Virus record (IMG/VR): IMGVR_UViG_3300008110_000044
DNA length: 64,000 nt
Source: an uncultured virus (IMG/VR IMGVR_UViG_3300008110_000044)
Lineage: Duplodnaviria > Heunggongvirae > Uroviricota > Caudoviricetes
Direction: 5' to 3' (one strand)
The position numbers and the translations under genes are program-made. Below are positions 1 through 58,703 of the stretch, piece by piece. How positions within the stretch are numbered: the first letter of the stretch is position 1; the number at the start of each line of letters is the position of its first letter. Under the pieces are notes generated by a model that was not told the DNA's origin, searched no databases, and saw nothing but the letters and a program-made list of their open reading frames with translations.

Positions 1-371
1 GTACCCTCAGCTACGGCTGTGGTATTAAGAGTTTGGAAAGACTTGTCTCCTCTCCAGTACTGAGATGTGGTACCCGCTGTAATAGCTGGTTCACCACCTA
101 GTCCAGATAATGTGTAAGTAGGTACATTAAGAGTATTAGACACAAGGGTAGCTGCTCCACTAGATCCAGTGGTAGTAAGAGTAAGTACTGATTGATACCC
201 AAGTCCAGTAACGTAAGTGCGTACCCAGCTTGTACTAGGTATCTTATTTGTGTTATCAGAACTATGCGGGTTCTCTCCTACAGTAAGAGTAGCTGGTAGC
301 ACCACGTGCCCGTTAGCATCATACTGTACTATGTTGACTATATGTGAGGTCTTCCTACCTTTGTTATTCAT
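1..371 (-). CDS. Tail fibre-like protein, N-terminal part (runs off window edge)
   Basis: Manual translation from ATG at 371: MNNKGRKTSHIVNIVQYDANGHVVLPATLTVG...GTTSQYWRGDKSFQTLNT, open to the edge; the NIVQYDA motif is shared with the fibre starting at 4833. Confidence 0.75.
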   Translation of the reverse strand, partial: MNNKGRKTSHIVNIVQYDANGHVVLPATLTVGENPHSSDNTNKIPSTSWVRTYVTGLGYQSVLTLTTTGSSGAATLVSNTLNVPTYTLSGLGGEPAITAGTTSQYWRGDKSFQTLNTTAVAEG

Positions 372-377
372 AGGTTA

Positions 378-3300
378 TTACTTATTTATCAATTGTTTTA
401 CTAGATCTTTAAGTTCTTCTATCTCACTCTTCTGTGACTCTATCTGAGATTGTTGTTCTTTAATGGCTTCTATTAACACTGCAGTAAGACCTTGATATCT
501 AACTGACATAGTTCCATCATCATTAGTTCTAGCTAATTCTGGTAAAACTTTTTCTACCTCTTGAGCTATAACTCCAATATCTTCTTTAATTTTAGTTAAG
601 TGATTAACTTCTTTCCAATCAAATCTATAAGCATTAAGTTGTAGTATAGATTGTAAAGCATTAGGTACTACTTCTTTAATATCTTTTAATCTAATATCAG
701 AAGGTGAACCAAAAGCTGTAATATCACCTGTTGCAACTATACTACCATTTGGATTAATTCTTACTCTTTCTAAACAATAACCACTTGTACTAGCTGCACC
801 AGATGGATTATAATTTGTGTAAAATGCAATAAAACCTTGGTCTGGACCATATGATGAGGTTCCACCAACAATTCTTGCATAAGGATATGGTCCTCCTTTA
901 AAGAATATACCAGTATATCTATTATCAGCACCAGTTGTGAAACTAAGTGTTAAAGCATCAGCACTTGTAGATCCTGAGAATACTTCAAGTTTTGAAGTAG
1001 GAGCATCAGTATTTATACCAAAATTACCACCGCCATTAAAATATGTATCTCCACCTCTTGAATTATTAGCTGCAATCAATACTTTATTAGTACCATTATC
1101 CATTAATCTCATGTAGCCGTCATTAACACCACTACCAGTATTACCAACATGAAATATTTCTTGTTCCGTACCTGTTAAATTTGCACGAACACCTATACTG
1201 TATGAAACATTTAAGTATCTACTTTCTCCAGTTGTTGGTCCAATTGTAACAGTACCACCACCGTATGTTTGCATTTTTACTGTTCCAACATTACCATTAT
1301 ATCCCCCAGAGGTATAACCCATACCACCATTTAAATATAATCTACCACCTTTGTAACCTACTCCATTATCAGAAGTACCACCTTTAATCATTAAGTCTTT
1401 TCCATGACCAGTTCCTTGGTCAGCTGGAGAAGCTCCTCCATTACCTTGTGGTGTAATAACAACACGTGAATCATAGTATTGACCAAGAACTAATGCAACT
1501 GTTGCACCTTGACCAGCTGTTCCAATACCATTATTTCCAGCAGTTTGAAACATGAATCTTCTTGCTTGAGTATCTAACTCAGCATCATAAACGGGCCAGC
1601 CTTTTGATGGAGCTCCAGCTGTAATACCATTTGATGCAACATGAAATGTTTCAGTTGGATCTACATTAATACCAAATCTAGCATCATAACCTCCACCTGC
1701 AGATGATTGTCTTAAATTAAAAAATATTTTATCTTCATCATCATCCCATCTTGCACCAAATCTTAAGTCACCACCAAATGAGGTACCAATATTTCTTATA
1801 TATGTACCTTCAGTGTCATTAGCATCATAAAAATTAATTCTACCTACACTATTACTAGCAGATTGAAATTGTAAAGTTGTTGCACTATTCCAACTACCAA
1901 TAACAACACTGTTACCTAGTGTTAAACTTGAAGCAACTAAATTTGGTATTGTTACTTGACCACTACTACTCCAAGATAATAAAGTATTATAACCATTATT
2001 TCCTGAATTTGGAGTAATAAAAGATGCTGCATTTTTCCATACATATTCTTGTCCCCAACCACTAAATGCACCACTTGGGTTACCACTTACATCTACACCA
2101 AAAGCTAAACTTTTATATGAGTTTGTTTCAGGTTGTCCTACAATTAATACTTTATAACTATTTTGATCATAGCCAAAACCAGAAGGTTTTAATGCTTGAT
2201 GAGCACCTATTGTAAGTGTATTATTTATAGAAAATGCCCCACCAAAGTAGTTTAATCCACCACTACTGTAAATTGAATAGTTAGTAGAACTTCCACTAGT
2301 TTGATTAGCAATATAAAGAGCGTAGTTATTTACAATTGACGCACCTGATAGCTTTTCTGCTGATGGAATATAAACTCCAAAAGTATTAGTTACTGCTGTA
2401 CTTGCTTTAATTCTAGCATTTGCAAATAATCCATAGTTATCTCCTGAACCTGCAAGTTGAGGGTCAAGTAATATAGCATATTGTGAAGTCCCTGTTGTAA
2501 TAGCACCTCCAATAAATATTGATGCGTATGTTATGTCGCCTCCTGCTGTACCAACTGCAATTCTACTATCAGCTAAAAACGGATTACCAACTCTAACATT
2601 AGATCCGTTATCTGTAATTACAGAATCATTTAATGATATACCATTTGCTGCCCATTTAGATAATCTTCCTGATGTACCACTGCCAGTATAACTAGAATAA
2701 TTGCTACTATTTAATAATGTATACCATGCAGATTGAAGAACTGAACCATTAAATCTAAATTTTCTTACAAATATATTAGCATTATTATCAAGATTTGAAG
2801 CAAATTGTAATGTATATCTTTCACCAGAACTATTACTAGTCCATAATGGTTGACTTAATACACCCCAATCTCCACTTGATTGTCCTGAAGGAATATTACT
2901 TGGATTAAATGCAGCAAAAAACCCACCTGTAGTTATAGCATTAGCATCACCAAAACTACCAGCATTAGGAGCACCATTTAATCCACTTAATGTTTGGTCA
3001 CCTGTATTTGTTCCACTTGATGAACCACTAAAATTTGTAGCAGTAATAGTACCTGCAAATGTAGCTGCTGCATTTGCTGCTAATGTTAAAGCTAATGTAC
3101 CATTTGCACCTGCTATAAAATCTGATGTTGCATTAACATAAAAATACAATGCTCCACCAACTCCTGTGTTACCTGCTACTATAAAATTACCCCCATTATT
3201 ACCTAATTGTAATACACCTTCTGCACTACTTCTTGTTCCTAAAATTGTTCTATATGAACCTGAATATCCAGAAGGAGTAAATGTAATTTTTGGATCACCA

Positions 3301-4833
3301 TCATTTAATAAAAGTTTTGTTGCAGTAATAGTTGAACTAAAAGAACCAGTACTTGCTGCTAACGCCCCCGTAAATTTACCAGCACCATTTACTTGTAATT
3401 TTTCTCCAGTATCAGATGAGCCATTTTGACCCATGTGTATTGTTCCATTTCCCTTAACTGCTATAACAGTAGAATCATCAGTTGCTACTCTAAAAGCAAC
3501 AGCATTACCTGCATATGGATCAGATGTATTAATTCTTGGAAGCTCAATAGAAACAAGAGCATTTGCTATAAAACCTATAGATGGACCATCAGATGCATAA
3601 TCGACAACTTGTAATCCATTGCTATCAGTCCATGTTCCAGGACTAGCAAGTGTACCGTGTCTTTGAATTACTACTTTATAATCAGTTTGATTAGAAGCTG
3701 CAGATAAACCTATTGATAAAGTTGGACTAGTATATGTAAATGCATTTGTACCTGAAAGTGTATTTGCACCACTCCATATTGCTATTCTTGTATCGGCACC
3801 TGTTCCAGTAACAGGATTAGTTAACAATGTTTGATAAGTACTAGCAGCACTACTTGTAGTTAAGTAAGTTGAGTTATCATAGGATACAGTAGTACCACTC
3901 ACCTTTACAAAACCTGTACCATTAAGCTGAGGCTGTTTTGTACCTATACTTGTAGCTATTGTTGTAGCAAAGTTAGGATCGTTACCCAAAGCTGCAGCTA
4001 ACTCATTAAGTGTATCTAGAGTGGCAGGAGCTGAATTAACTAGGTTACTAACCTGTGTATTAACATAAGTCTGGGTAGCATAACTATTACTAGTAAGATA
4101 TGTTCCAACTCTTGTGTCGGTATAGTATAATCTTGTTCCTTCAGTAATGTCAGAAGTAGTTAATGTTACATCTCCTGTTTTTGTATTAACAGCTGTTACA
4201 CCTCCTGTAACAGTAATTACACCTGTAGCAGAATCATATGATCCTGAACCAGTTACACTAATTGCAGCTCTAGCTCTAGCATTTGTAAACCAAAGATTTA
4301 CAGGTGAACCGTCTTCAGAAATATCATCAGTATAAAGAGTCCAAGTTCTATTTGCACTTAAATCTTGAGTAGTCCCATTAATCGTAATTGTTCTAGAAGT
4401 AGAAACACCACTAAGGTCACCTAAGGTAACTATAGCTTGTGTTGATAAAACTCCTGTTGAACTAGCTACTACCATTCTGCTTCCTGTTCCAGCAAGACTA
4501 CCTACAAGTACGTTACCGCCTTGTGGGTTTAATCTAAGAACAGTGCTACCTGTTATAGATGTACCATAATATCCTTGAATATCTGCATAAGAAGAAGCTG
4601 ATGTTCCACCAACTGTATGAACAACAAATGCATTATTACCACCAGAAGCTGGATTAGAATTTATTAATCAATCCACCATTAACATCTAATGAAAATTGAG
4701 TAGTATCATAAGGAGTAGTATTGTTAATAGCAACAGTTCCGGTAACAGCAAGCCTTGCAGGTAATGTTATATTATTACTTGCATCATATTGCACTATATT
4801 CTGTAAATATCCAGTATGTCTAGTATTGCCCAT
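378..4833 (-). CDS. Long tail fibre with C-terminal peptidase S74 chaperone; frameshifted at ~4657-4667
   Basis: 1365-aa ORF with fibre motifs (APATLDTLNELAAALGNDPNFAT, FGINTDAPTSKLEV) ending SDIRLK...LTAVLIEAIKE; its frame is open up to 4667; a 59-aa fragment starts at ATG 4833, coupled (TAATG) to the upstream stop, and ends at 4654. Confidence 0.8.
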
Positions 4834-7800
4834 TATTGTATATTATTACGTTCTAGTATTTCTTTTAGCTTATTGTTTTCTGCTGCTAGTTCCTTTACTG
4901 CTTCTATAAGGACAGCTGTAAGACCCTGGTAACGTACTGACATAAAACCGGTCTGGTTTTCTCTAGCCAGTTCAGGCAATACTTCTACAACTTCTTGAGC
5001 TATGACTCCTATATCTTCTTTGATATCAAGCTCACCACCTGGTTTTTCTTTCCAGTCAAACCTGTAACCGTTAAGTTTGTTAACTACTTGAAGAGCATTA
5101 GGAACTTTTTCTTTAATTTCTTTAAGTCTAATATCTGATGCAGAGCCATAAGCAGTAACATCACCTGTAGATACAATATCCCCTAAAAATCTGTAAGTAG
5201 CAGCATTGTTGTAGTCAGTAGCTGTTTCTGGTGCTACATAAATAGCAACTTCCTCTATACCAGTATCTTCATTTCCATCAGGATCTTGGTCTGACATTAT
5301 TCTTATTCTAATATCTCCTACAATATCTGATGATAATGTTCTTTCAAAATAGAATGTCTTAACAGGAGTTTTACCACTTCCATCATTTGTGTACAACCAT
5401 AAACCATCAATAATAGTATGATTGGTTAAAAATGTTTGATAGTTATTACCTACAAAACTTGGTTTTTGAGAAGCATTTTCAGCATTATTATAGTTATTAC
5501 ATACAATACCCCAAATCCATGTTTCATTAGCATTAGCAGTATCTACACCTGTAATTGCTATACCATCCATGAAATTACTTGAGCTAATTGAAGCAGACGC
5601 ATTATTCCAACCATCAGTACTACCACCACCTCTTACACGAATATAACCATACACCTTACGGAATGCTTTTCTATTAGGAATAGTAACTACTGCTTCACCA
5701 CCACTACCAGCAGAAAAAACACCATATTTTCTACCCATAGCAGTAACACCATTATTACTACGAACTTGTGTCAGATTACCTACTACACCATCACGAACAT
5801 GCCAACCATAAGCCAAACTATAGTTGTAACTACCTACAGTAATTGATGCAGGACTTAAAGATGAATAATTTCTACTTACGTTTAACGGCAAACTTGTTCT
5901 ATCATCTCCATATTGCTGTAAATTAAAGTTCCTAATTAATGCCCATGTATTAGGACTACTACTACTTTCATATATTGCAAAACCGATTCTACCACGAGCA
6001 ATACTTCTTGGATTCATAGTACCTCTAAATACTTCTGAACCTTCAACTTCTATAAAAATAACATTATCATTAACAGTAATTCTTATATGTCTTTCATTTC
6101 CATCAGCAAAATTTGGATTAAATGAACCTACACTATTTAGTGTTGTAGTACCTGATTGGTCTACTCTTATCTGATTATCACCAGTACTACTAACATTATG
6201 TCTAAATACTACATAGTCGTATGAACCAACAGAATCAGTATTATTTGTAGGAATACCAATAGCAAAATGTCTGTAACCACTTACCGGATTTCCTAATGTC
6301 AATTTGAAATCCATTGTAAAATTGTTTTCAACAATTTCAGAATAAACAACCATGTTACCATATCCTGCACCACTTGTCTTTGTAATTGATACCTCTGTTG
6401 TATCTCTTACACGAACAATGTTAGTAGCATCATTTATTGAATACCAATAATGTCCACTATTATTTGAGAAGGTAGTCTTTGTAGTAACAGAACCATTTAC
6501 AACATATAACTTACCTTGTGCAGTTGCTTCATCTCCTATAATTACATTACCATTACGAATCATAGCATCTGTACTAGACAAATCCCATAAAAACTTTTGT
6601 CCAATACTACCTATTGTTTCAGGTACAGTATTAATATAGCCAAATGAACCTCTAAATGAACCACTATTATTATAAAATTGAATATTACTATACCCTGATG
6701 CTGAAGTATTTTCTAATCTTAATACACCTGTACCAGACTCAGTTCTTTTAATATGTAATGCTGTTTGTGGGTTTATTTCACCAATACCTACCTTCCCACT
6801 AGGCTTCCAAGACATTATATCTGCATTGTCTTGTGGATAAGGATTAACACCATGACTTAAAGCAAACCTATCAAAAGTATTACTACCCGGATTACCCGTG
6901 TTCATGTGTGTACATAAACCATAACCTGAAACTAAATTTCCTGTTGTGGGATTAATATTCTTGAATGTCAAGATATGCCTCCAAGTAGTATCATCATCTA
7001 CACCAAACATTTCAAAAATTGCATCACTATCACATATTGCAAATGGAGTATAAGTTTTTGCAGCATAAGCACCATCAGCAGGAGTTGTCGTGCTAATCAT
7101 TCTACCTAAAAAGTTTGCTTGTATAACCTTTGCACCTGTAATAGTTTGAGCAGTTGCTAGTGTTACAAAACCTGTTACATTAGGTATATCAGAAGTTAGT
7201 GCTAAAGTACCTGTTGCACTTGGCAAAGTATATGTATATGTACCATTTCCTAATGTACTAGCAAATATAAACTGACCTGCAGGAGTTATTCTTGCAACAC
7301 TTGTATTTGTCGTATATGAATAAAAATGATAATTGTCTGTTTGACCTACTGCACTACGTAGACCTGTGTACCAATTAGGAGTTCCATTTGTTCTTACTTG
7401 TAAACCTGCTTCTTCCGAAGTACTAAATCTATTAGCATAATACCATGCTTGAACACCTGTTGGAGTTGAAATCTGCAATTGTCCTGTCATTGTACCACCT
7501 GACAATGGAAGATACGAAGTATTATCATAAGTTATTGTAGTACCACTTGCTTTTATAAAACCAGTTCCGTTTAACTGTGTTTGTGGTGTTAAGTTACCAG
7601 CATGCCATACTGTATTATCTTTATAGCTAAAATCATTAATTCCAACTTTAAGTGTTACTGTTGACCATGCATGATCTACTATTTCAAAAAACGAACTATT
7701 TGAACTGCCGCCTAGCTGCACAGTCATTGTTCCTGCACTTCTATCAGATGCTCTACCTATCCATGCTTCTCCTGTATTTGATAATGATGCAGGAAATCTA

Positions 7801-8421
7801 CCCATGATTGCCCCAACCATAAGCAGTATCCCAGTTACTTTTATTATAACCAGATATTGCATTAGCACCATTAAAAAAGTTTTGAATCTGTGCATCTGTA
7901 TAAGCATTTGTTATACCATACCCAGAAATAGTTGTTGGAGTACTTGTTATCTTAGACCAAGCAAGAGATGTAATCCAAGCAGGATTAGCATATGTACTAT
8001 CTGTACGTACATCACCTACTGTAAAAGATCTATTTGCACTAAGATCAAGAGCGGTACCATTTATAGTAAGAGTTCTAGAAGTAGGTACTTTTGCATCAAG
8101 AGCAGTCTGTAAATCAGTCTGATTAGATAGAGTACCAGTAATAGTTCCCCAGGTAGTTCCTACGGTTGGTGAAACTTCAGCATAAGCTGATCCTGTCCAA
8201 CGATAAATCTTATTAGTATCTTGGGCAACATATATAATACCAGTAGAACCTGTTGCAGGAAAACCTGCCAGGTTAGTATACTCAAGTATATCATCTACAT
8301 AAGAAGGTAACTGGGAAGAAGGTATCTTACCATCTACCAAGTCAGCTTTAGTGCTAAGATCAACACTACTGTTTGTAAGAGTGTTACCTGATATTGTTGC
8401 TATGTTACCGCTGTTAGGCAT
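4833..8421 (-). CDS. Long tail fibre with lectin-like region and S74 chaperone; split into 7798-8421 and 4833-7805/7907
   Basis: 207-aa N-terminal ORF (KADLVDGKIPSSQLPSYVDD..., ends WGNHG*) overlaps a 1024-aa ORF in the next frame carrying GKVGIGEINPQTALHI and SDIRLK...LTAVLIEAVKEL. Confidence 0.8.
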
Positions 8422-8437
8422 ATCTTAATTCATATTA

Positions 8438-10309
8438 TTAGTTTACTAAAGCTAATGCTTTCCATCCACTAGAAGTATAAGCCCAAAGACCTTCTGTACC
8501 ATCTGTCTGATAAATAATGCTACCTACAGAAGGAGATGATATAGCGGACTTTTGAGTAGCTGTCATTCTTGGAGGAACAAAAGCTTTAGTAGTAGATGTT
8601 ATAGTTAAGCTACCAGTAATAGTTTTATCACCAGTAATAGTTTCTGTTCCTGCAAGATGTACAACAGTATTATCTAGTGCATAACCTGCACTAGCGTGAT
8701 TACCCCATCCATAAGCTGTGTCCCAATTAGACTGAGAAGAAGTAGTAGGTATTGAGTATCCAGCTGTAAAAGTAACAGCAAGAGTACCTGATCCTGTAAC
8801 TGGACTATTTGCAACTGATAAACCAGTAGGTACAGAAAGACCTACTGAGGTAACAGTACCTACTGACCATGAACGATCAGCAGTAAGATCGTAAGCAGTT
8901 CCGTTTATAGTTAGCTGCCTAGCATTTGTTACAGGAGTATACCCAAGAAGTGTTGCAATAGACTTCATCTTGTATAAAGATGAAGAGTTCTCATATGAAA
9001 GAACTGTGTTGTCAGCCGGTGTAGCTGTTATCTGTACATTATGTAATTCTTGTAGCTCAAAACCGTTCTGTACTTTTACAAAAATCTCACCGTTATTTTG
9101 TTGAGCCCTTGTTACTATACCAATAAATACTAGATGAGCTGGAGCATATGGTTTATTAAGTAAACCAAATATAAGCTGACCATTGGTACCTAGCCAAACA
9201 GGATCACCAGCAGAAGCTGTAGATGTATCTATTCCTGCAACAAGTCCTTCTGTGACTACAAATACTATATCATTCTGTGCCCCACCAGATGCTAGAAGAC
9301 CCATTGTCTTACTAGATGTAGCTTCAGATGCATTAGATGCTTTACTAACAATCATGTTAGTTCCAGCATTTCCTGTACTGCTACTTACATAAACAGCAGT
9401 ACCTACTGTCATAGCTTCTCCAAGCTTTACGTAGTGTTGAATCTGACTTGTATAGTTAGGTATCCACGCTACAGCATAGTTTGTTGCAGAAGTCTTTGCT
9501 AAAATATCACCAGTGGCACCACCCGTTGGAAGAATATTCCAAGTTCTGTTAGCTGTTAAATCTTGAGTTATACCATCTATGGTAATTGTTCTGCTAGAAG
9601 ATAGACCTCCACCAGCTACCCATGATATAACTTCTACATAATCCCCAGCAACACAAGCGGTATTAAGAACTACAGTAGTTCCATTACTTGCATTAAACTC
9701 AGATCCAGAAAGCTTAGAACCGTTATAAAAAACATCAACTGCCCCTATAACGTAGGAGCAGGAAAAAGTTGTTTGACCGGCAGTTGCTGTAAAGATGCAA
9801 ATATCTCTAGAGCTAGGAGACTGCCCTACATAGTATGGAGAGTAAACAAAAACAGTAACAATATCATTTAAAGAAGCAGCATCGTCTAAGACAATAGTAC
9901 TGCTATTAGTAGCAGTATAAAGATCATCATTTATATATACACCATTGACAAAAACATCTATAAACCCAGGTGTATATCCTCCTGATACAGTGAATGTTGT
10001 CTGTCCTGCTGTTGCAGTAAATACCTGTTTAGTTCTAAATGAAGCAAGGTTTCCTGCTCCTGATGCTGTTAAAACCCCAGTAATAGCATCTATAGAAAGA
10101 CCAGAACCAACCTTTACACCTCCTAACGTACTAGCAGAGGCAATAGGTAAGCTGTAAGGTACAACGTAGCTTTGTACCCAGGCAGTTGTAGCCAGCTTGG
10201 TAGAGTTGTCATTTGCCGCAGGCGTCTGACCAGTAGCTGTATTATTTAATGTTACTACTCCATCTACCGTCAGACCAGCTTTAGCTAGTATGTCAGTTAG
10301 AAACTTCAT
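8438..10309 (-). CDS. Tail fibre / virion structural protein
   Basis: Two FTATAGQTTF...DVF.NG repeats, TINGTAYDLTADRSW and GTVTSVGLSVPTGL fibre motifs. Confidence 0.75.
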   Translation of the reverse strand: MKFLTDILAKAGLTVDGVVTLNNTATGQTPAANDNSTKLATTAWVQSYVVPYSLPIASASTLGGVKVGSGLSIDAITGVLTASGAGNLASFRTKQVFTATAGQTTFTVSGGYTPGFIDVFVNGVYINDDLYTATNSSTIVLDDAASLNDIVTVFVYSPYYVGQSPSSRDICIFTATAGQTTFSCSYVIGAVDVFYNGSKLSGSEFNASNGTTVVLNTACVAGDYVEVISWVAGGGLSSSRTITIDGITQDLTANRTWNILPTGGATGDILAKTSATNYAVAWIPNYTSQIQHYVKLGEAMTVGTAVYVSSSTGNAGTNMIVSKASNASEATSSKTMGLLASGGAQNDIVFVVTEGLVAGIDTSTASAGDPVWLGTNGQLIFGLLNKPYAPAHLVFIGIVTRAQQNNGEIFVKVQNGFELQELHNVQITATPADNTVLSYENSSSLYKMKSIATLLGYTPVTNARQLTINGTAYDLTADRSWSVGTVTSVGLSVPTGLSVANSPVTGSGTLAVTFTAGYSIPTTSSQSNWDTAYGWGNHASAGYALDNTVVHLAGTETITGDKTITGSLTITSTTKAFVPPRMTATQKSAISSPSVGSIIYQTDGTEGLWAYTSSGWKALALVN

Positions 10310-25893: not shown

Positions 25894-25909
25894 AGTTTAT
25901 TTTTTTTAG

Positions 25910-25991
25910 TGCCCCATAAGAGACTCGAACTCTTATACCTTGCGGCACCAGATCCTAAGTCTGGCGTGTCTACCAATTTCACCAACGGGGC
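25910..25991 (-). tRNA. tRNA-Leu(TAG)
   Basis: GCCCCGT acceptor, CCAGA-CTTAGGA-TCTGG anticodon arm, long variable arm, TTCGAGT T-loop, A73; CCA not encoded. Confidence 0.93.
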
Positions 25992-25996
25992 TATAG

Positions 25997-26067
25997 TTGC
26001 GGGGCCTAGAGTCGAACTAGGATTTCTGGGTTATGAGCCCAATGTGCTACCGTTACACCACCCCGCG
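25997..26067 (-). tRNA. tRNA-fMet(CAT), initiator type
   Basis: CGCGGGG acceptor with C1-A72 mismatch, GGG/CCC anticodon stem, CTCATAA loop. Confidence 0.93.
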
Positions 26068-26080
26068 ATAATTATTTAAG

Positions 26081-26175
26081 CTGTAGGGGGAGGATTTGAA
26101 CCTCCAAATGAGCAGGGACTCCCCGCTCCCGCCTCCGAGACTGGGAGGTGCGTCTGCCAATTTCGCCACCCTACA
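26081..26175 (-). tRNA. Atypical class-II tRNA-like RNA, nominal anticodon GTC (Asp)
   Basis: TGTAGGG/CCCTACA acceptor, D-loop GG, CCTCC-CAGTCTC-GGAGG, 8-bp variable stem, GGAGG-TTCAAAT-CCTCC, G73. Confidence 0.75.
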
Positions 26176-29179: not shown

Positions 29180-29610
29180 TATAAATCTATTTTAAAGCTC
29201 ATATAATCTTCCCCTGTCTTACCCCAGTTTTTGTAGAGTAATATAGGTTCTGCTCCCAGATTTTCAAAGATGTGCCAGGATGCTCCCTTTCTTGCTTCTC
29301 CTATAAGATGTTCGTACTTCATATCCTTTGCCCACTCTAAGACGGTAGAGACAAGTTCATATCCCAAACCTTTTCCTCGGTGTGCCGGTAGTACGGTAAA
29401 ACTATCTATATGAGCTACGTTGTCTGAACTCCAAGTCATAATAGCTTCTGCCATAAGTCCCTTCTTATCTCGGAACCATATACCTTGACATTCTTTATTT
29501 TCTTGGAGCATGAAAAGTTTATACTTCTCATCCCAGCGTAGTTCTTTGGGATGCTCCCGTTCAAAGACAACTGTTTCCTTGTAATCTCTGAGCTTATAGA
29601 GCGTATTCAT
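29179..29610 (-). CDS. GNAT acetyltransferase
   Basis: TVLPAHRGKGLGYELV acetyl-CoA motif and IFENLG. Confidence 0.85.
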   Translation of the reverse strand: MNTLYKLRDYKETVVFEREHPKELRWDEKYKLFMLQENKECQGIWFRDKKGLMAEAIMTWSSDNVAHIDSFTVLPAHRGKGLGYELVSTVLEWAKDMKYEHLIGEARKGASWHIFENLGAEPILLYKNWGKTGEDYMSFKIDL

Positions 29611-29862
29611 TTATTTTTCTTTTTTAAGACTTCTAGAAGTTTTTGGTTCCTCGTCTTCTTCCTCTTCTTTTGGAGGAGCTGTAATTTGGGCTATGAATGA
29701 AAGAGCCTTAAGTTCCTCAGCTCTACCCACAGCTAAAGCGGTGTTTAGTTCCTGAAGCTCAAGCTGTACTCTCTTAACCTCAATTTGTTCTTGGAAGAAG
29801 TTAATGACCTCTTCTTTGCTTGGGGCCTTTTGTTCTTCTTGTTCTAAATTTTCTGTGCTCAT
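29611..29862 (-). CDS. Hypothetical coiled-coil protein
   Basis: 83-aa ORF in operon. Confidence 0.55.
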   Translation of the reverse strand: MSTENLEQEEQKAPSKEEVINFFQEQIEVKRVQLELQELNTALAVGRAEELKALSFIAQITAPPKEEEEDEEPKTSRSLKKEK

Positions 29863-29881
29863 TGTTCTTTGGTTTTAATTA

Positions 29882-30172
29882 TTAAAGACTAATATCCCCC
29901 GCGTCCGTATCAGACGGACCCGCGTGATAAAGTTGAAACATAGTTAGGAATTCTTCATAGGGAGTATCAATAACATAAGTATCCCCATGGTCGGTAAATA
30001 TAGTCGTACAATTATACACCATCTCTTCCTCGTCATCCGTGGTGAGCTTACAGGCAATAACTACATCTATATGAAAAGCAAAAGACAGCCACTTACCTTT
30101 ATCAGGTATACCCATTAGATCAGCTTTCTCTATATCTATCGTGTGGCAATGGATGTTACAAGTGTGTATCAT
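29882..30172 (-). CDS. Hypothetical protein
   Basis: First gene of the minus-strand block; likely ATG at 30172. Confidence 0.55.
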   Translation of the reverse strand: MIHTCNIHCHTIDIEKADLMGIPDKGKWLSFAFHIDVVIACKLTTDDEEEMVYNCTTIFTDHGDTYVIDTPYEEFLTMFQLYHAGPSDTDAGDISL

Positions 30173-30193
30173 AGACTTTGGTTTTATGTCAGG

Positions 30194-30209
30194 GTACAAT
30201 TAAATATAC
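30194..30209 (-). promoter_or_regulatory. Candidate late promoter GTATATTTAATTGTAC
   Basis: Variant of the recurrent motif; flanking TTTAAACTCT..AAATTTA also shared with the 20346 site. Confidence 0.5.
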
Positions 30210-30267
30210 CTAAAAAGTTTAAACTCTCCAAATTTACTTATTATTACCTATTACTCTATACCCCCAT

Positions 30268-30287
30268 TTATCAACAGCTGTGCATAA
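30268..30287. promoter_or_regulatory. Inverted pair of DnaA-box-like 9-mers
   Basis: TTATCAACA-GC-TGTGCATAA, each within one mismatch of TTATCCACA, at the divergent strand switch. Confidence 0.45.
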
Positions 30288-30433
30288 CCCCCCCCGGTAC
30301 TATATATCCAGTATGCTAGAGGTAGTGATGGGTACTTCATGGGTTTGACCCCGACTAGAACTTGGCACTGTGGTACCCCTATGGGTTCACGGTTGCAGTT
30401 ACTTATTTTCTAACGCCTTAAAATCTTTATGTC

Positions 30434-30733
30434 ATGGCAAAAGTTAAAGTAAAAGTTCTGAAAGTTTCAGACAAGACCACAAACGGTAATTTCATTCACA
30501 CTCTGAAAACAGACGGTGAAACAATCAAAGTCCTTGGACAGGATATGGTTGGTAACGGATTAACTTACTATGCAGCACTTAAAGGTGCAGCAAAAGTAGG
30601 TACCGAAGAAATCGTAGACCTATCTAGGTTTGACGTTGTGGAAAGACCTTATGAAGTTACAGACGAAGAGTCTGGCGAACTTCGTACGCTCATGTTGAAA
30701 TGGCTCTATCCAAAGAGACCAAGTTCAAACTAA
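30434..30733 (+). CDS. Hypothetical early protein (beta-rich)
   Basis: 99 aa, first plus-strand gene, followed by a terminator. Confidence 0.65.
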   Translation: MAKVKVKVLKVSDKTTNGNFIHTLKTDGETIKVLGQDMVGNGLTYYAALKGAAKVGTEEIVDLSRFDVVERPYEVTDEESGELRTLMLKWLYPKRPSSN

Positions 30734-30736
30734 TTA

Positions 30737-30764
30737 AAGGCGGGACGCAAGTCCCCCTTTTTTA
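30737..30764 (+). terminator. Intrinsic terminator
   Basis: GGGAC-GCAA-GTCCC followed by a T-run. Confidence 0.8.
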
Positions 30765-30832
30765 CTTTCCCTTTTGATTGTCAATCAGTCAATCAGCATT
30801 CTTAATCATTTATAAACCAAACATCCCTAATC

Positions 30833-30982
30833 ATGAAAAGATCTAAACGCCTCATGTTCCCATCTTGGGACTTCTTTAAAGCCTGGTATCTATCTATGAA
30901 AGACAGATTCTCCAAGCTTACTCTTAATCTTGTCCGCTATATCAGTGGCTCACACCACGTAAGAGTAGAGATAAGCTATTAA
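30833..30982 (+). CDS. Small hypothetical protein (49 aa)
   Basis: MKRSKRLMFPSWDFFKAWYLSMKDRF...; A/C-rich leader. Confidence 0.45.
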   Translation: MKRSKRLMFPSWDFFKAWYLSMKDRFSKLTLNLVRYISGSHHVRVEISY

Positions 30983-31248
30983 GAGCGTTATAACTCGTTG
31001 ATAATCAGGTGTGTCTGTGTGGTAGTTCAACAGACACCCTTTTCTTATCCTTTTAAGTACTCTGTATTCCAAAGTACTTTTGCCGCGGATGAGATAGCTA
31101 TAACTCATTATCCCTGGAGAATAGGCTATGTAGGAACCACAGTTAACGTTCATATTGTCTGATGTATCAGAAACGTTCTGCCTCTTACCTATTCTTACGG
31201 ATATACAGACAGGGGGAGCAGTCTATAAAAGGGCTCCCACCAATAATA

Positions 31249-31719
31249 CTTTCTCCGAGTAATACACTATCGGTTGCAAACGGTGTGTATCATAAACCTA
31301 CTGTCTCTTTGAAGACAGCTTGATTAACCACCTAGTACGTGGAGGGGCTTGGAGAGAGTATTCAATGACATGCATGAGTTCCTATGTCTAATAGTCAATT
31401 AGGAGATGAAAACGTCCACCTACACTATTAGCACCTCTTGAAGGTTAGGAACATGCATGTTTTATACTTGTCGGGTGTATATAACCGTCTTGTGTGTACC
31501 AATTGTACATCTCTTTCCGAGCTTCCTGGTTGTTAGGCTATAAAGAGTATTGTAACTAGGTTTCTGTTGGGCCACAGATACAGCCCACAGACAGTCGTCT
31601 TTATGACGGTTGCAAACGGTAGACATAGAGATGACTTCTGTTATCCTCTATGATGGAGAGATGTCTGGACCGCAAGGTCAGATCGGACAGCCTCAATGAT
31701 ATCATAGACCAAGGTATAA
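31249..31719 (+). ncRNA. Candidate large structured ncRNA or ncRNA cluster
   Basis: Three contiguous multi-branch domains in an ~890-nt ORF-free region; repeated loop CGGTTGCAAACGGT. Confidence 0.55.
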
Positions 31720-31872
31720 GATTTTTCTTATTATCTTATTATGTACCATTATGTATCCATTAGCCAAGCTGTATAGCTGGCAGTTTTCAACCCAAGCCTT
31801 GAGCAAGCTGGGCCATTTTACATAAACTACAAGCTCTCTTTACTAATTATTAACCACCTAAATACTCAAAAC

Positions 31873-32061
31873 ATGAAGTATCTAATCAGCATTTTGTTAC
31901 TCTCCATAGCCTTCATACCCTTTTTGCTATGGTTCTCTCTTGTTTATTTATGGACCTTTGATCCCACGCCAGTCAGACAACTTTGTCATGATTTTAGTGA
32001 GACCATAGAGTCTAACTACCGCAAAGCATTTCGTAGAAAACCTAAACGTAGAACCTTTTAA
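31873..32061 (+). CDS. Small membrane protein
   Basis: N-terminal TM helix, basic tail. Confidence 0.6.
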   Translation: MKYLISILLLSIAFIPFLLWFSLVYLWTFDPTPVRQLCHDFSETIESNYRKAFRRKPKRRTF

Positions 32062-32071
32062 ATCATCCTGT

Positions 32072-32275
32072 ATGAAAGCAACAAAAACAATGTTGGCCTT
32101 TGTAGTCACAAGTCTTATTACCTGGCTTTTTCTTGGCTCTCTCTTTTACTTATGCTCTGGCGATCTTTCCTTCCGAGAGGCTTGCACTCACGGTGGCGTA
32201 GCTATGCTTATGCTACTATTTGGATGGATACCTGCCGTAATCGTAAGTATGGACGTAGACGAGAAGATTGCTTAA
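32072..32275 (+). CDS. Small two-TM membrane protein
   Basis: Two hydrophobic segments. Confidence 0.6.
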   Translation: MKATKTMLAFVVTSLITWLFLGSLFYLCSGDLSFREACTHGGVAMLMLLFGWIPAVIVSMDVDEKIA

Positions 32276-32278
32276 CAA

Positions 32279-32356
32279 GTATCACCAGAGATACTACATA
32301 ACATAGTTCTATATAGTTATTATATTATACTATGTTATAGATATCACTGGTGATAC
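32279..32356. repeat. 78-bp imperfect inverted repeat with AT-rich core
   Basis: GTATCACCAG...ATAACATAGT / ACTATGTTAT...CTGGTGATAC. Confidence 0.75.
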
Positions 32357-32374
32357 CTCTTACACTATCATATT

Positions 32375-32986
32375 ATGAAAAAGATATATTTCACAGCTGT
32401 TTTACTGGTATCTGTACTGATACTTATTAGCGTCCAAGCAATGAATATAACCCAAACAATCTATATTCAACCGCTTGGCAAGGTTAAATTCGAGTATCTA
32501 ACAGCAGTAAAACGTTCATTAGAGTCTTTTTATAAGGTAAAATGTGTAATCATGAGTCAAATAGATCCAACCGAAGATGTTATATCTAAACCTAGAAGAC
32601 GTATTGATGCCTCTATGGCACTTAATAAGTACAATTCTAGCAATCACACCATCATTGTGACTGAACGAGATATATCACACTTTAAATCAGTCTCTCAACC
32701 AGACTGGGGCATCTTTGGCCTTGCTACTAAACCTGGTAAAATAGCAATAGTATCAAGTTATAGATTACATAACCCTGATAAAAAACTCATAATCACTAGA
32801 TTACAAAAGATAGCTATCCACGAACTTGGTCATAATCTTGGTCTTGCTCACTGTAATAAAGATATCAAATGCTTGATGTCAGCAGCTGGCGGGACAATAA
32901 AACAAGTAGATCAAGAAGATATATACTTCTGTACATCTTGTAAAAGAAACCTCATTCATTCAACCTTATTAAATCTTGAAAGATGA
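32375..32986 (+). CDS. Archaemetzincin-like (M54) zinc metalloprotease with signal/TM N-terminus
   Basis: HELGHNLGLAHC...CLM...FCTSC: HExxHxxGxxHC, Met-turn and Cys4 site. Confidence 0.85.
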   Translation: MKKIYFTAVLLVSVLILISVQAMNITQTIYIQPLGKVKFEYLTAVKRSLESFYKVKCVIMSQIDPTEDVISKPRRRIDASMALNKYNSSNHTIIVTERDISHFKSVSQPDWGIFGLATKPGKIAIVSSYRLHNPDKKLIITRLQKIAIHELGHNLGLAHCNKDIKCLMSAAGGTIKQVDQEDIYFCTSCKRNLIHSTLLNLER

Positions 32987-33147
32987 AATCATCAAAAGAT
33001 CTCACGCCTTCACAAGTAATACTAATCATGATTATATTCATGAGTATACTGTCTGGGCTTACCAGTTGTTCTTCTACCAGAAACGGCTATGGCTGTAAAG
33101 GTAAAGAATCATGGGAAAAACTAGTTAGAAGGATAAATAGTCCTTAA
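32983..33147 (+). CDS. Small putative lipoprotein (54 aa)
   Basis: Hydrophobic stretch then LTSC lipobox; ATGA overlap with the protease stop. Confidence 0.55.
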   Translation: MKSSKDLTPSQVILIMIIFMSILSGLTSCSSTRNGYGCKGKESWEKLVRRINSP

Positions 33148-36858: not shown

Positions 36859-37539
36859 GGGGGTGCCTGGTTTTGACAGACATGTAGAGAGTTAGTAAAC
36901 ATGCGGACCTTTGGTAGAAGTGGTCCTTAAATAAACTGCAAACGATAAACGGCAAGACACAGTCTGACCGTGTAGCAGAAGGAGAAGCTATCTTGGCTTC
37001 TATCTTCGGTGAAGTAGCAGTAGCTGCCTAACCCTACGGGGGATCTATCCCTGGCAACAGAAAATAGTAAACTGACATGCCTTAAGGTTGGAACCCTGGA
37101 TAGGCCCAGGAGAAAGGAGCTATAAACAGAGTTAGCCTTCGCATTAAGAACTACGTTCCCAAAGCGTAAATCTTTCCAGTTGCTCCCGACATGTCAACGA
37201 ATAGACAGAGTCCTATGATGGTAGTTTACTACCGGATACTTATGGCGTGCTGATATTCAAAACCGCTCCGCACTGGAAGTTAGAATAGTTATAAAAGGTT
37301 CTAACGAAGGGAGGATAAAAAGCAGCCTAATGATATTAAGAGCTATGCTCCCAAAATCACGAACCATCCTCCAGTACTCCCGAGCAACAACTAAAACTGA
37401 AGTTGTAAATAGACAGTTAACTCTACGGTGCAGGCTGTCACAATTCTTCAAAGATTTGTGACATATCAGTACTAAGCATGTGATACGTTTTACTTTCTTG
37501 TCTCTTGTTTGGACGCGGGTTCGACTCCCGCCACCTCCA
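36859..37539 (+). ncRNA. ssrA: tmRNA, unusually large (~681 nt)
   Basis: 5' GGGGGTG...TTTTGAC; 3' CTAAGCATGT...GGAC-GCGGG-TTCGACT-CCCGC-CACCTCC-A with G3.U70; PK1 GGACC/GGTCC; tag 36951-37031 ends VAVAA*. Confidence 0.93.
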
Positions 37540-37569
37540 CTGCCTCATATGGCAAGCAAGCAATCGTTA

Positions 37570-58153: not shown

Positions 58154-58202
58154 GAAATATTCACGAACTTACCTACATTTGCTTTTAAAACCTCTCCAAC
58201 AT

Positions 58203-58703
58203 ATGAACGAACAACTCTATGCCGCACGTCTTGAAAAAAAACTGATAGATGAATTTGTAAAGAACTTCTACGAAAAGCTTGGTTATAAGCCTGTTGTCAT
58301 TTCAAAGACCACAGGAATGCCAGCTGATGAGAGCATTCCCTTTATGAGTCTTGAAACCTTAAAAGAACATTTCCGCCCTTTCTTACCTATCGTATATGGT
58401 AAGATCAAAGAACTTTCTTGTAGAGAAAGAGTAAGAGAAATTGTAGAACTAAGAAACATGTACTGTTATTTGTCCAAGAAAATGGGCTATTCTCTCAAAA
58501 CTATAGGATTAGTAATTGGAGACAGGGATCATACTACTGTCATCCATAACATTAGAAGTTATAATAATCTGATGGAAACCAATCAAACCTACCGTGAAAA
58601 GTATATTAAAATTTTAAACCATATAAAGAAACAGTATGAATCACCAAGTCTGGACGACACTGATAAAGTACAATGTGAGTCCCAACCAGTTGTACTTCCT
58701 TGA
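58203..58703 (+). CDS. DnaA domain IV-like HTH protein
   Basis: R.REIVELRNMYCYL...SLKTIGLVIGDRDHTTVIH DnaA C-terminal signature; TACATTTG at 58174. Confidence 0.8.
   Translation: MNEQLYAARLEKKLIDEFVKNFYEKLGYKPVVISKTTGMPADESIPFMSLETLKEHFRPFLPIVYGKIKELSCRERVREIVELRNMYCYLSKKMGYSLKTIGLVIGDRDHTTVIHNIRSYNNLMETNQTYREKYIKILNHIKKQYESPSLDDTDKVQCESQPVVLP

What the first reader, a model, noticed from the sequence alone, without database searches (positions are those of the whole stretch)
30983..31872. ~890-nt ORF-free region packed with multi-branch RNA structures
Seen: domain A 31249-31358 (CTTTCTCCGAGT/GCTTGGAGAGAG enclosing three hairpins); domain B 31368-31460 (ACATGCATG..GTTCCTA/TAGGAACATGCATGT with CTAATAGT/ACTATTAG); domain C 31461-31719 (TTATACTTG/CAAGGTATAA, ACATCTCTTT/GGAGAGATGT, 13-bp AGTCGTCTTTATG/CATAGAGATGACT, GACC-GCAA-GGTC); then two CCAAGC..GCTGG hairpins. 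G-U pairs favour the plus strand. It lies at the start of the early region. Inference: an undescribed large ncRNA in the ROOL/GOLLD/OLE size class or a tandem of sRNAs, possibly anti-defence. I recognise no known family.
Basis: partly seen in the sequence, partly recalled or inferred. Interest (0 to 1): 0.78.

Follow-up and report, generated by a model that had tools for sequence, protein, structure and literature searches.

The report
Shuffled small-RNA array in lake phage
This stretch of a lake virus that infects bacteria is not one giant RNA but a row of about six separately folding small RNAs that related viruses gain, lose and swap (some carry known self-cutting RNAs in the same slot); four match no catalogued family and two look built to pair up with copies of themselves.

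Summary
The folding is real (z about -5), but the region is not one large ncRNA. In this crAss-related phage, 30983-31102 holds a terminator-like hairpin and a 17-nt motif conserved across relatives, probably the early promoter. Behind it lie six modules: S3, PK, A, B, C and T. Relatives carry S3, A, T and PK alone or in other combinations; C was always followed by T. S3, A, C and T show compensatory changes, and nothing here matches Rfam. In relatives the same slot holds Rfam hatchet ribozymes and twister-fold RNAs, and A is sometimes nested inside a twister stem. Loops of A and C switch between 6-nt palindromes (UUGCAA, UCUAGA, CUCGAG), the signature used for self-kissing loops in OLE and GOLLD. 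RNA-library contigs from four studies cover the block, three of them only the non-coding part. Best reading: an exchangeable cassette of stable small RNAs on the early transcript, with A and C dimerising and acting in trans and T acting as a gene leader. That S3 or T is a new self-cleaving ribozyme class remains open. No function is shown.

The parts
30833..30982 (+). Small ORF (49 aa) that ends just before the region
   Evidence: similar DNA at the same place in several related loci
31011..31048 (+). Hairpin followed by a pyrimidine tract; terminator-like or promoter-associated, not part of the array
   Evidence: a GT-rich hairpin plus pyrimidine tract recurs at this distance from the motif in most of 28 distinct loci; function inferred
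31086..31102 (+). Conserved 17-nt motif CGGATRAGATRGCTATA; inferred early promoter with start at about A31103
   Evidence: On the early strand in 28 of 31 loci with a full 5-kb flank (up to 2 mismatches; 7 of 31 also have a match on the other strand); conservation ends at +1. Hatchets start 4 nt after it. A near-identical strain has a gene and hairpin in place of the motif, joined at exactly 31103. Promoter activity not shown.
31112..31202 (+). Module S3: long irregular hairpin with three 5'-side bulges (5, 2 and 7 nt) and an invariant apical hairpin
   Evidence: 20 distinct copies from 25 viral hits plus earlier loci. On 19 aligned copies 14 of 26 pairs change on both sides; 0 of 500 shuffles reach the paired share or covariation score. 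The apical core was the search pattern, so its invariance is partly built in.
31207..31238 (+). Module PK: small H-type pseudoknot with an A-rich linker
   Evidence: Also in L229 with both stems kept and in another context in an RNA contig of run X5; only two lineages compared
31249..31358 (+). Module A: outer stem, hairpin with palindromic loop (31273-31280), core CCU-A-stem-CUUG-A-rich-stem-GGG
   Evidence: 17 distinct copies (9 of 25 distinct pattern hits dropped by eye as chance). Outer stem, loop stem and third stem differ in sequence but still pair. Nested in twister P5 in L298 and L320, and by eye in L304 and L321.
31368..31460 (+). Module B: stem-loop bounded by a 9-bp self-complementary direct repeat
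   Evidence: z -5.08 plus, -4.16 minus; found only in near-identical strains among the loci held; covariation untestable
31464..31757 (+). Module C: about 290-nt multi-stem RNA with palindromic loop at 31609-31616 and an invariant ACAGAUACA loop that could pair with GUAUC near 31753
   Evidence: Four lineages: window, L136, L233, L282; 4 of 102 records searched by BLAST. 22 of 88 predicted pairs of C+T change on both sides; central arm 92 of 92 cells paired. The loop-GUAUC pairing shows almost no variation and is untested.
31763..31836 (+). Module T: variable hairpin, then a conserved core (31779-31836) with two predicted pseudoknots, 36 nt before the next start codon
   Evidence: 11 distinct contexts, 6 without C; next ATG 25-41 nt away in 9 of 11. 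Compensatory G-C to U-A in the stem and GAGC/GCUC to AAGC/GCUU in the loop-tail pairing.
31873..32061 (+). First downstream ORF (62 aa, hydrophobic N-terminus, no PHROG match)

Best explanation
An exchangeable cassette of small structured RNAs at the 5' end of the phage's early transcript. SHOWN: six modules, at least four of them separate RNA families with compensatory changes, gained, lost and reordered among related phages, and sharing their slot with hatchet and twister-fold RNAs. INFERRED: (1) the 17-nt motif starts transcription at about 31103, right after infection; (2) the long transcript is cut and trimmed (by neighbouring ribozymes in relatives; by host RNases or an unrecognised cleaving module here), and the compact folds outlast the mRNA; (3) A and C self-associate through palindromic kissing loops, and since both carry UUGCAA in this phage they could also join each other; (4) the resulting stable dimers act in trans as protein-binding decoys or scaffolds, most plausibly against a host RNA-binding defence or decay factor, which would explain the patchy, host-specific distribution; (5) T acts in cis on the stability or translation of the next gene. 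Odds: array of separate RNAs 0.9; kissing dimers of A or C 0.6; trans-acting decoy role 0.4.
For: Modularity. Covariation. Slot shared with ribozymes: five distinct Rfam hatchets at 66-80 bits, 4 of 5 starting 4 nt after the motif; 18 distinct twister-fold RNAs by my descriptor, with the T1 pseudoknot switching CCC/GGG to UCC/GGA and CAC/GUG. A as cargo in twister P5. Palindromes: the C loop switches TTGCAA to CTCGAG, four changes that keep self-complementarity including two adjacent bases; 9 of 17 A copies have TTGCAA or TCTAGA in the loop against 15 of 409 background loops. Kretsch et al. use this palindrome-switch criterion for OLE and GOLLD kissing loops (10.1101/2024.12.08.627333, passages). 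RNA: contigs from 4 studies cover the block; X5, X7 and X8 cover only the non-coding part although the query included flanking genes. Precedent: abundant, lasting early intergenic RNAs of unknown function in phi14:2 (10.1101/2020.03.07.982082, passages).
Against: No function, binding partner or host is known. 8 of 17 A copies lack a perfect loop palindrome, including all 5 of one subfamily; only three palindromes and few independent lineages were seen, and the test was post hoc. RNA evidence is assembled contigs: no strand, no true ends, no level, no DNA control laid. The X1 contig runs from an upstream gene through the array into the next gene, which fits plain mRNA. phi14:2 early transcripts had no common upstream motif, so the promoter reading has no direct precedent there. 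No hatchet or twister lies in this genome record. B has no independent support.
Confidence: 0.5

Rival explanations
1. One or more modules (most likely T or S3) are new classes of self-cleaving ribozyme that cut the early transcript, doing the job that hatchet and twister do in relatives. This can coexist with A and C being cargo.
For: Same slots: S3 begins within about 10 nt of the inferred start in three lineages, like hatchet at +4; T ends 25-41 nt before a start codon in 9 of 11 contexts, as 12 of 24 twister-fold copies do at 32-46 nt. Both have invariant unpaired bases; T has a double pseudoknot and its conservation starts abruptly at GG with free sequence upstream. RNA contigs of three studies stop at 31744-31759, just before T, a weak hint. 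Twister sister, hatchet and pistol were found by looking beside known ribozymes (PMC6765202, passages and section 13).
Against: No match to any Rfam ribozyme. I could not fit S3, A or T by eye to recalled hammerhead, HDV, pistol, hairpin or twister-sister cores. The same review says other RNAs found beside ribozymes did not cleave. The X1 contig spans T unbroken.
Confidence: 0.25
2. All modules act only in cis, as 5'-leader structures that tune the stability, termination or translation of the early mRNA.
For: T always precedes a gene; the array is bridged to flanking genes in one RNA contig; many S3 and A copies lie within about 60 nt of a start codon.
Against: The downstream genes differ from copy to copy; A sits inside twister P5 and, in L319 and L322, upstream of the promoter motif; palindrome switching is not needed for a cis leader; three runs hold the block without the flanking genes.
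Confidence: 0.17
3. The modules are selfish or neutral mobile cassettes that pile up in a tolerant, recombination-prone spot behind the promoter.
For: Patchy distribution: S3 in 1 of 12 near-complete records, hatchet in 1 of 11; 5-nt microhomology at the ends of the PK-A-B block and a 9-bp direct repeat around B; a gene inserted exactly at +1 in a near-identical strain.
Against: One copy per record; all copies seen near the motif lie on the early strand; no reverse transcriptase, transposase or homing nuclease family among 35 window proteins scanned against Pfam (not all ORFs, and the genome is incomplete).
Confidence: 0.06
4. One large ncRNA of the ROOL/GOLLD/OLE size class covering the whole region.
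For: The whole 890 nt folds well, z -4.9; one RNA contig spans it; palindromic loops recall these RNAs.
Against: No relative outside the near-identical strains keeps the whole set; modules occur singly and in other orders; no Rfam hit.
Confidence: 0.03

Closest known systems
Ribozyme-rich intergenic neighbourhoods of bacteria and phages (hatchet RF02678, twister RF03160)
   Same: Clusters of small structured RNAs near phage genes; in relatives this very slot holds hatchet and twister-fold RNAs. Processing of polycistronic RNA is the suggested, unproven role (PMC6765202 section 13).
   Different: This copy holds no known ribozyme; its modules match no Rfam family; one module is carried inside a twister stem in other phages.
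Early intergenic long non-coding RNAs of crAss-like phage phi14:2
   Same: Long non-coding stretches at the head of the early region, abundant and lasting, function unknown.
   Different: No sequence or S3-model match to phi14:2 1-9000; no common early promoter motif was found there.
OLE, GOLLD and ROOL ornate RNAs
   Same: Multi-stem RNAs, GOLLD and ROOL in phages, that self-assemble through symmetric kissing loops recognised by palindrome switching.
   Different: No model match; A is about 110 nt and C about 290 nt, well below GOLLD's often more than 800 nt; the array is a mosaic, not one conserved RNA.
HIV-1 dimerisation initiation site (recalled, not from a call)
   Same: A six-base palindrome flanked by purines in a hairpin loop, with alternative palindromes in different lineages.
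   Different: Unrelated virus and sequence; analogy of mechanism only.

Membership tests
ROOL / GOLLD / OLE | Match to the family covariance model | tested here: not met
   No hit at gathering score or at E up to 10
ROOL / GOLLD / OLE | One conserved unit of several hundred nt kept together across genomes | tested here: not met
   Modules separate and reorder
ROOL / GOLLD / OLE | Symmetric kissing loops shown by palindrome-to-palindrome change at adjacent loop bases (works-like feature) | tested here: met
   C: TTGCAA to CTCGAG; A: TTGCAA to TCTAGA in 9 of 17 copies; few lineages
ROOL / GOLLD / OLE | Protein-free multimers | not testable with these tools
   Needs native gels, mass photometry or cryo-EM
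Hatchet ribozyme RF02678 | Model match in this region | tested here: not met
   None in the window or G001; 3 of 25 related records do match
Twister ribozyme (type P1 with P5) | UAA, P2, P4, T1 and T2 pseudoknots and GA-NNN strand (consensus recalled) | tested here: not met
   Descriptor finds 18 distinct copies in related loci and none in the window. Rfam RF03160 misses these copies as well, so their twister label rests on my descriptor.
Twister-sister RF02681 and pistol RF02679 | Model match | tested here: not met
   0 of 5 records each at E up to 5; no positive control, and diverged copies can be missed
Self-cleaving ribozymes in general | Site-specific self-cleavage | not testable with these tools
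   Only assembled contigs were available; no read ends
phi14:2-type early non-coding RNAs | Sequence or structure homology | tested here: not met
phi14:2-type early non-coding RNAs | Transcribed above coding genes and lasting through infection | tested here: inconclusive
   Three of four runs cover only the block, but contigs give no level, strand or time
Crassvirales (the phage itself) | Related capsid, portal and terminase block | tested here: inconclusive
   Major capsid hits cr10_1, csAssE-Sib and Cellulophaga phi4:1/phi17:2 at 22-26% and Leptolyngbya phage Lbo-JY46 at 28%; no tree built
Crassvirales (the phage itself) | Virion RNA polymerase gene | not tested
   No search for it was run; G001 is about 50% complete

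The most novel reading that the evidence does not exclude
These phages run a modular RNA programme from their earliest promoter: at least one of S3 and T is a new class of self-cleaving ribozyme that cuts the transcript, ribozymes double as scaffolds that display cargo RNAs (A in twister P5), and the cargo RNAs A and C assemble through matched palindromic loops into homo- or hetero-oligomers that neutralise a host factor. C would then be a new mid-sized self-assembling phage RNA class.
Probability: 0.2. Interest if true: 0.88.

Novelty: new variant of a known kind. Interest (0 to 1): 0.62.

Why it matters
[quoted passage not shown] This locus links them in one slot and gives four short, well-bounded RNA families (60-290 nt) that can be tested in vitro in days for cleavage and dimerisation. 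A positive cleavage result would add a ribozyme class; a positive dimer result would add small natural self-assembling RNAs; the natural twister-with-cargo design is of interest for RNA scaffolds.

Tried and rejected
No whole genome was held; nearest record G001, about 50% complete. GenBank phages: no real match to the region or to S3. GTDB genomes: no exact match to the S3 or T patterns, so no host clue. In the metagenome scan for T, 4 of 16 loci were chance. The S3 model found nothing new in 69 held sources and, in 50 records, only 12 copies already known. BLAST for C in 77 more records gave only three 15-20 nt chance hits. B has no outside homolog. Fixed 120-nt window z-scores did not single out the region because the windows cut through modules. 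DnaA-box-like sites are not clearly enriched in the window: 9 found, 7 of 100 shuffles as many (motif recalled). Sigma-70 scan uninformative. Fits by eye to hammerhead, HDV, hairpin, pistol, twister-sister, TPP and preQ1 cores (all recalled) failed. Literature: searches (listings) showed no paper on these motifs. Fremin et al. 2023 (PMC10690425; passages and 6 of 9 supplementary files) had no hit for three core motifs, but three files were not searched; the supplement of Weinberg et al. 2017 (PMC5737381; passages only) could not be read. Either could hold one of these motifs under an anonymous name. PMC8375218 (passages) gave nothing relevant.

Full report
Setting. The window is a phage genome piece: terminase, portal and major capsid genes on the minus strand, early and replication genes on the plus strand from 30434. 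The capsid protein is distantly related (22-28%) to crAss-like and Cellulophaga phages and to Leptolyngbya phage Lbo-JY46, so I call it crAss-related; a Bacteroidota host is inference. RNA runs that hold it are from lake and freshwater samples.

Observation. The region folds far better than shuffles: z -5.07 for 31240-31730 on the plus strand against -2.45 on the minus strand, A -4.85, B -5.08, C -2.78, tail +0.39. Rfam has nothing here. Short ORFs overlap it but are not conserved. A 14-nt stretch is shared exactly by the loops of A and C (0 of 100 shuffles give two copies).

The first 120 nt are a control region. Loci anchored on a conserved minus-strand gene carry a 17-nt motif, window 31086-31102, on the early strand in 28 of 31 loci with a full flank; conservation stops at the following A. 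What follows differs from phage to phage: a gene, a hatchet ribozyme 4 nt later (4 of 5 distinct hatchets), a twister-fold RNA, or one of our modules. A near-identical strain has a gene and hairpin joined at exactly 31103. I infer an early promoter starting at about 31103. The 17-nt length ending in CTATA recalls T7 and SP6 promoters (from memory); phi14:2 early transcripts had no common motif, so this is not established.

The rest is a mosaic. L136 has S3 joined to C+T with PK, A and B missing, and an RNA contig in run X8 shows the same join with T-like sequence in front. L233 has only C+T. L229 has PK+A after two other elements. S3 occurs in 20 distinct copies, most far from the motif; T occurs without C in 6 of 11 contexts; A occurs in 17 copies, two of them demonstrably inside twister P5. 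Each is accessory: S3 in 1 of 12 near-complete records, C in 4 of 102 records. This rules out a single large RNA.

The modules are real structures. S3: 14 of 26 pairs change on both sides, inner helices 95-100% paired, slid controls 40-51%; its apical hairpin was the search seed. C+T: 22 of 88 predicted pairs change on both sides among four lineages; the central arm is paired in 92 of 92 cells, 4 of 500 shuffles as high. The tool warns that related sequences can beat such shuffles without structure, so the slid controls and helix-level changes matter more than the counts. A: the third stem takes many sequences and stays paired (my parser chose another register in four copies of the second subfamily), and each of 16 folded copies closes an outer stem. 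T: one compensatory stem pair and one in the loop-tail pseudoknot. PK has two lineages. B has none outside this species.

Palindromic loops. The loop of C reads GTTGCAAA in two lineages and GCTCGAGA in two others: four changes, all keeping a 6-nt palindrome, two of them at adjacent positions that cannot pair within one strand. In A the equivalent loop has TTGCAA (4 copies) or TCTAGA (5 copies); 3 copies of the same subfamily and all 5 of a second subfamily lack a perfect palindrome. Background is 15 of 409 loops. Kretsch et al. used this same argument for kissing loops confirmed by cryo-EM in OLE and GOLLD. I put dimerisation of A or C at about 0.6.

Ribozyme neighbours. Hatchets are Rfam hits. 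The twister-fold RNAs are not; my descriptor, built on the recalled consensus, finds 18 distinct copies with long, varied P5 inserts and covarying T1 pairs, none in the window. An earlier AI note of this scan reports the same enlarged twisters in lake crAss-like phages, and two others describe shuffled RNA islands in rumen crAss-like phages; I treat them as leads that agree, not as support.

Expression. Nine RNA runs from four studies hold part of 29600-33000; I laid four, one per study. X1 has a contig over 31103-31893 and shorter ones on flanking genes; X5, X7 and X8 cover only the non-coding block and stop at 31746, 31759 and 31744. These are contigs: strand, ends and level are not shown and DNA carry-over was not controlled.

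Mechanism. Shown: modularity, structure, shared slot with ribozymes, presence in RNA libraries. Inferred: start at 31103, processing into stable pieces, kissing dimers of A and C acting in trans as decoys or scaffolds, T as a cis leader (0.5 for this whole picture). The main rival, that T or S3 self-cleaves (0.25), is compatible with much of it and is the cheapest to test. Cis-only leaders 0.17, selfish cassettes 0.06, one large RNA 0.03.

Novelty. RNA islands beside phage ribozymes and unexplained early non-coding RNAs of crAss-like phages are known kinds. The four families S3, A, C and T, the cargo-in-twister arrangement and the palindrome switching were not found in Rfam 15 or in my paper searches, but unread supplements of PMC10690425 and PMC5737381 could list them anonymously. 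Verdict: new variant of a known kind, interest 0.62.

Noticed in passing
window 36859-37542 (+): tmRNA of 684 nt, about 310 nt longer than the Rfam model, with expansions in the pseudoknot loops and before the 3' stem; ARAGORN misses it.
   Followed up: partly
L132, L134, L159, L162, L126, L193, L289 (early region): Another recurrent unclassified RNA, up to about 210 nt, ending in a pseudoknot-like element with ATGCGAAGTGAAAC; no Rfam hit. Absent from the window.
   Followed up: no
L280, after the promoter motif: More than 900 nt of apparently non-coding sequence directly behind the motif; a better candidate for a large RNA or intron than this locus.
   Followed up: no
L271, at the promoter motif: A twister-fold RNA whose UAA overlaps the end of the motif, so the transcript would begin as if already cleaved; its P5 insert is about 250 nt.
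   Followed up: no
L319 and L322: Module A sits upstream of the promoter motif inside a stem flanked by parS-like palindromes (label recalled).
   Followed up: no
L059, L124, L126, L128, L132, L134, L148, L159, L172, L202, L210, L225, L282, L289: Twister-fold RNAs with 49-134 nt P5 inserts of many kinds, missed by Rfam RF03160; the inserts may be further cargo RNAs.
   Followed up: partly
window 30268-30287 and 58179-58703: One exact and one near DnaA-box-like site at the strand switch (motif recalled; not enriched window-wide) and a gene with a DnaA C-terminal DNA-binding domain; possible origin region.
   Followed up: partly
window 32276-32374 (+): Long intergenic hairpin, z about -4.6, with look-alikes after early genes in relatives.
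   Followed up: no
window 25909-26175 (-): Three tRNA genes (Leu, Met, Asp) next to the terminase; Rfam confirms two.
   Followed up: no
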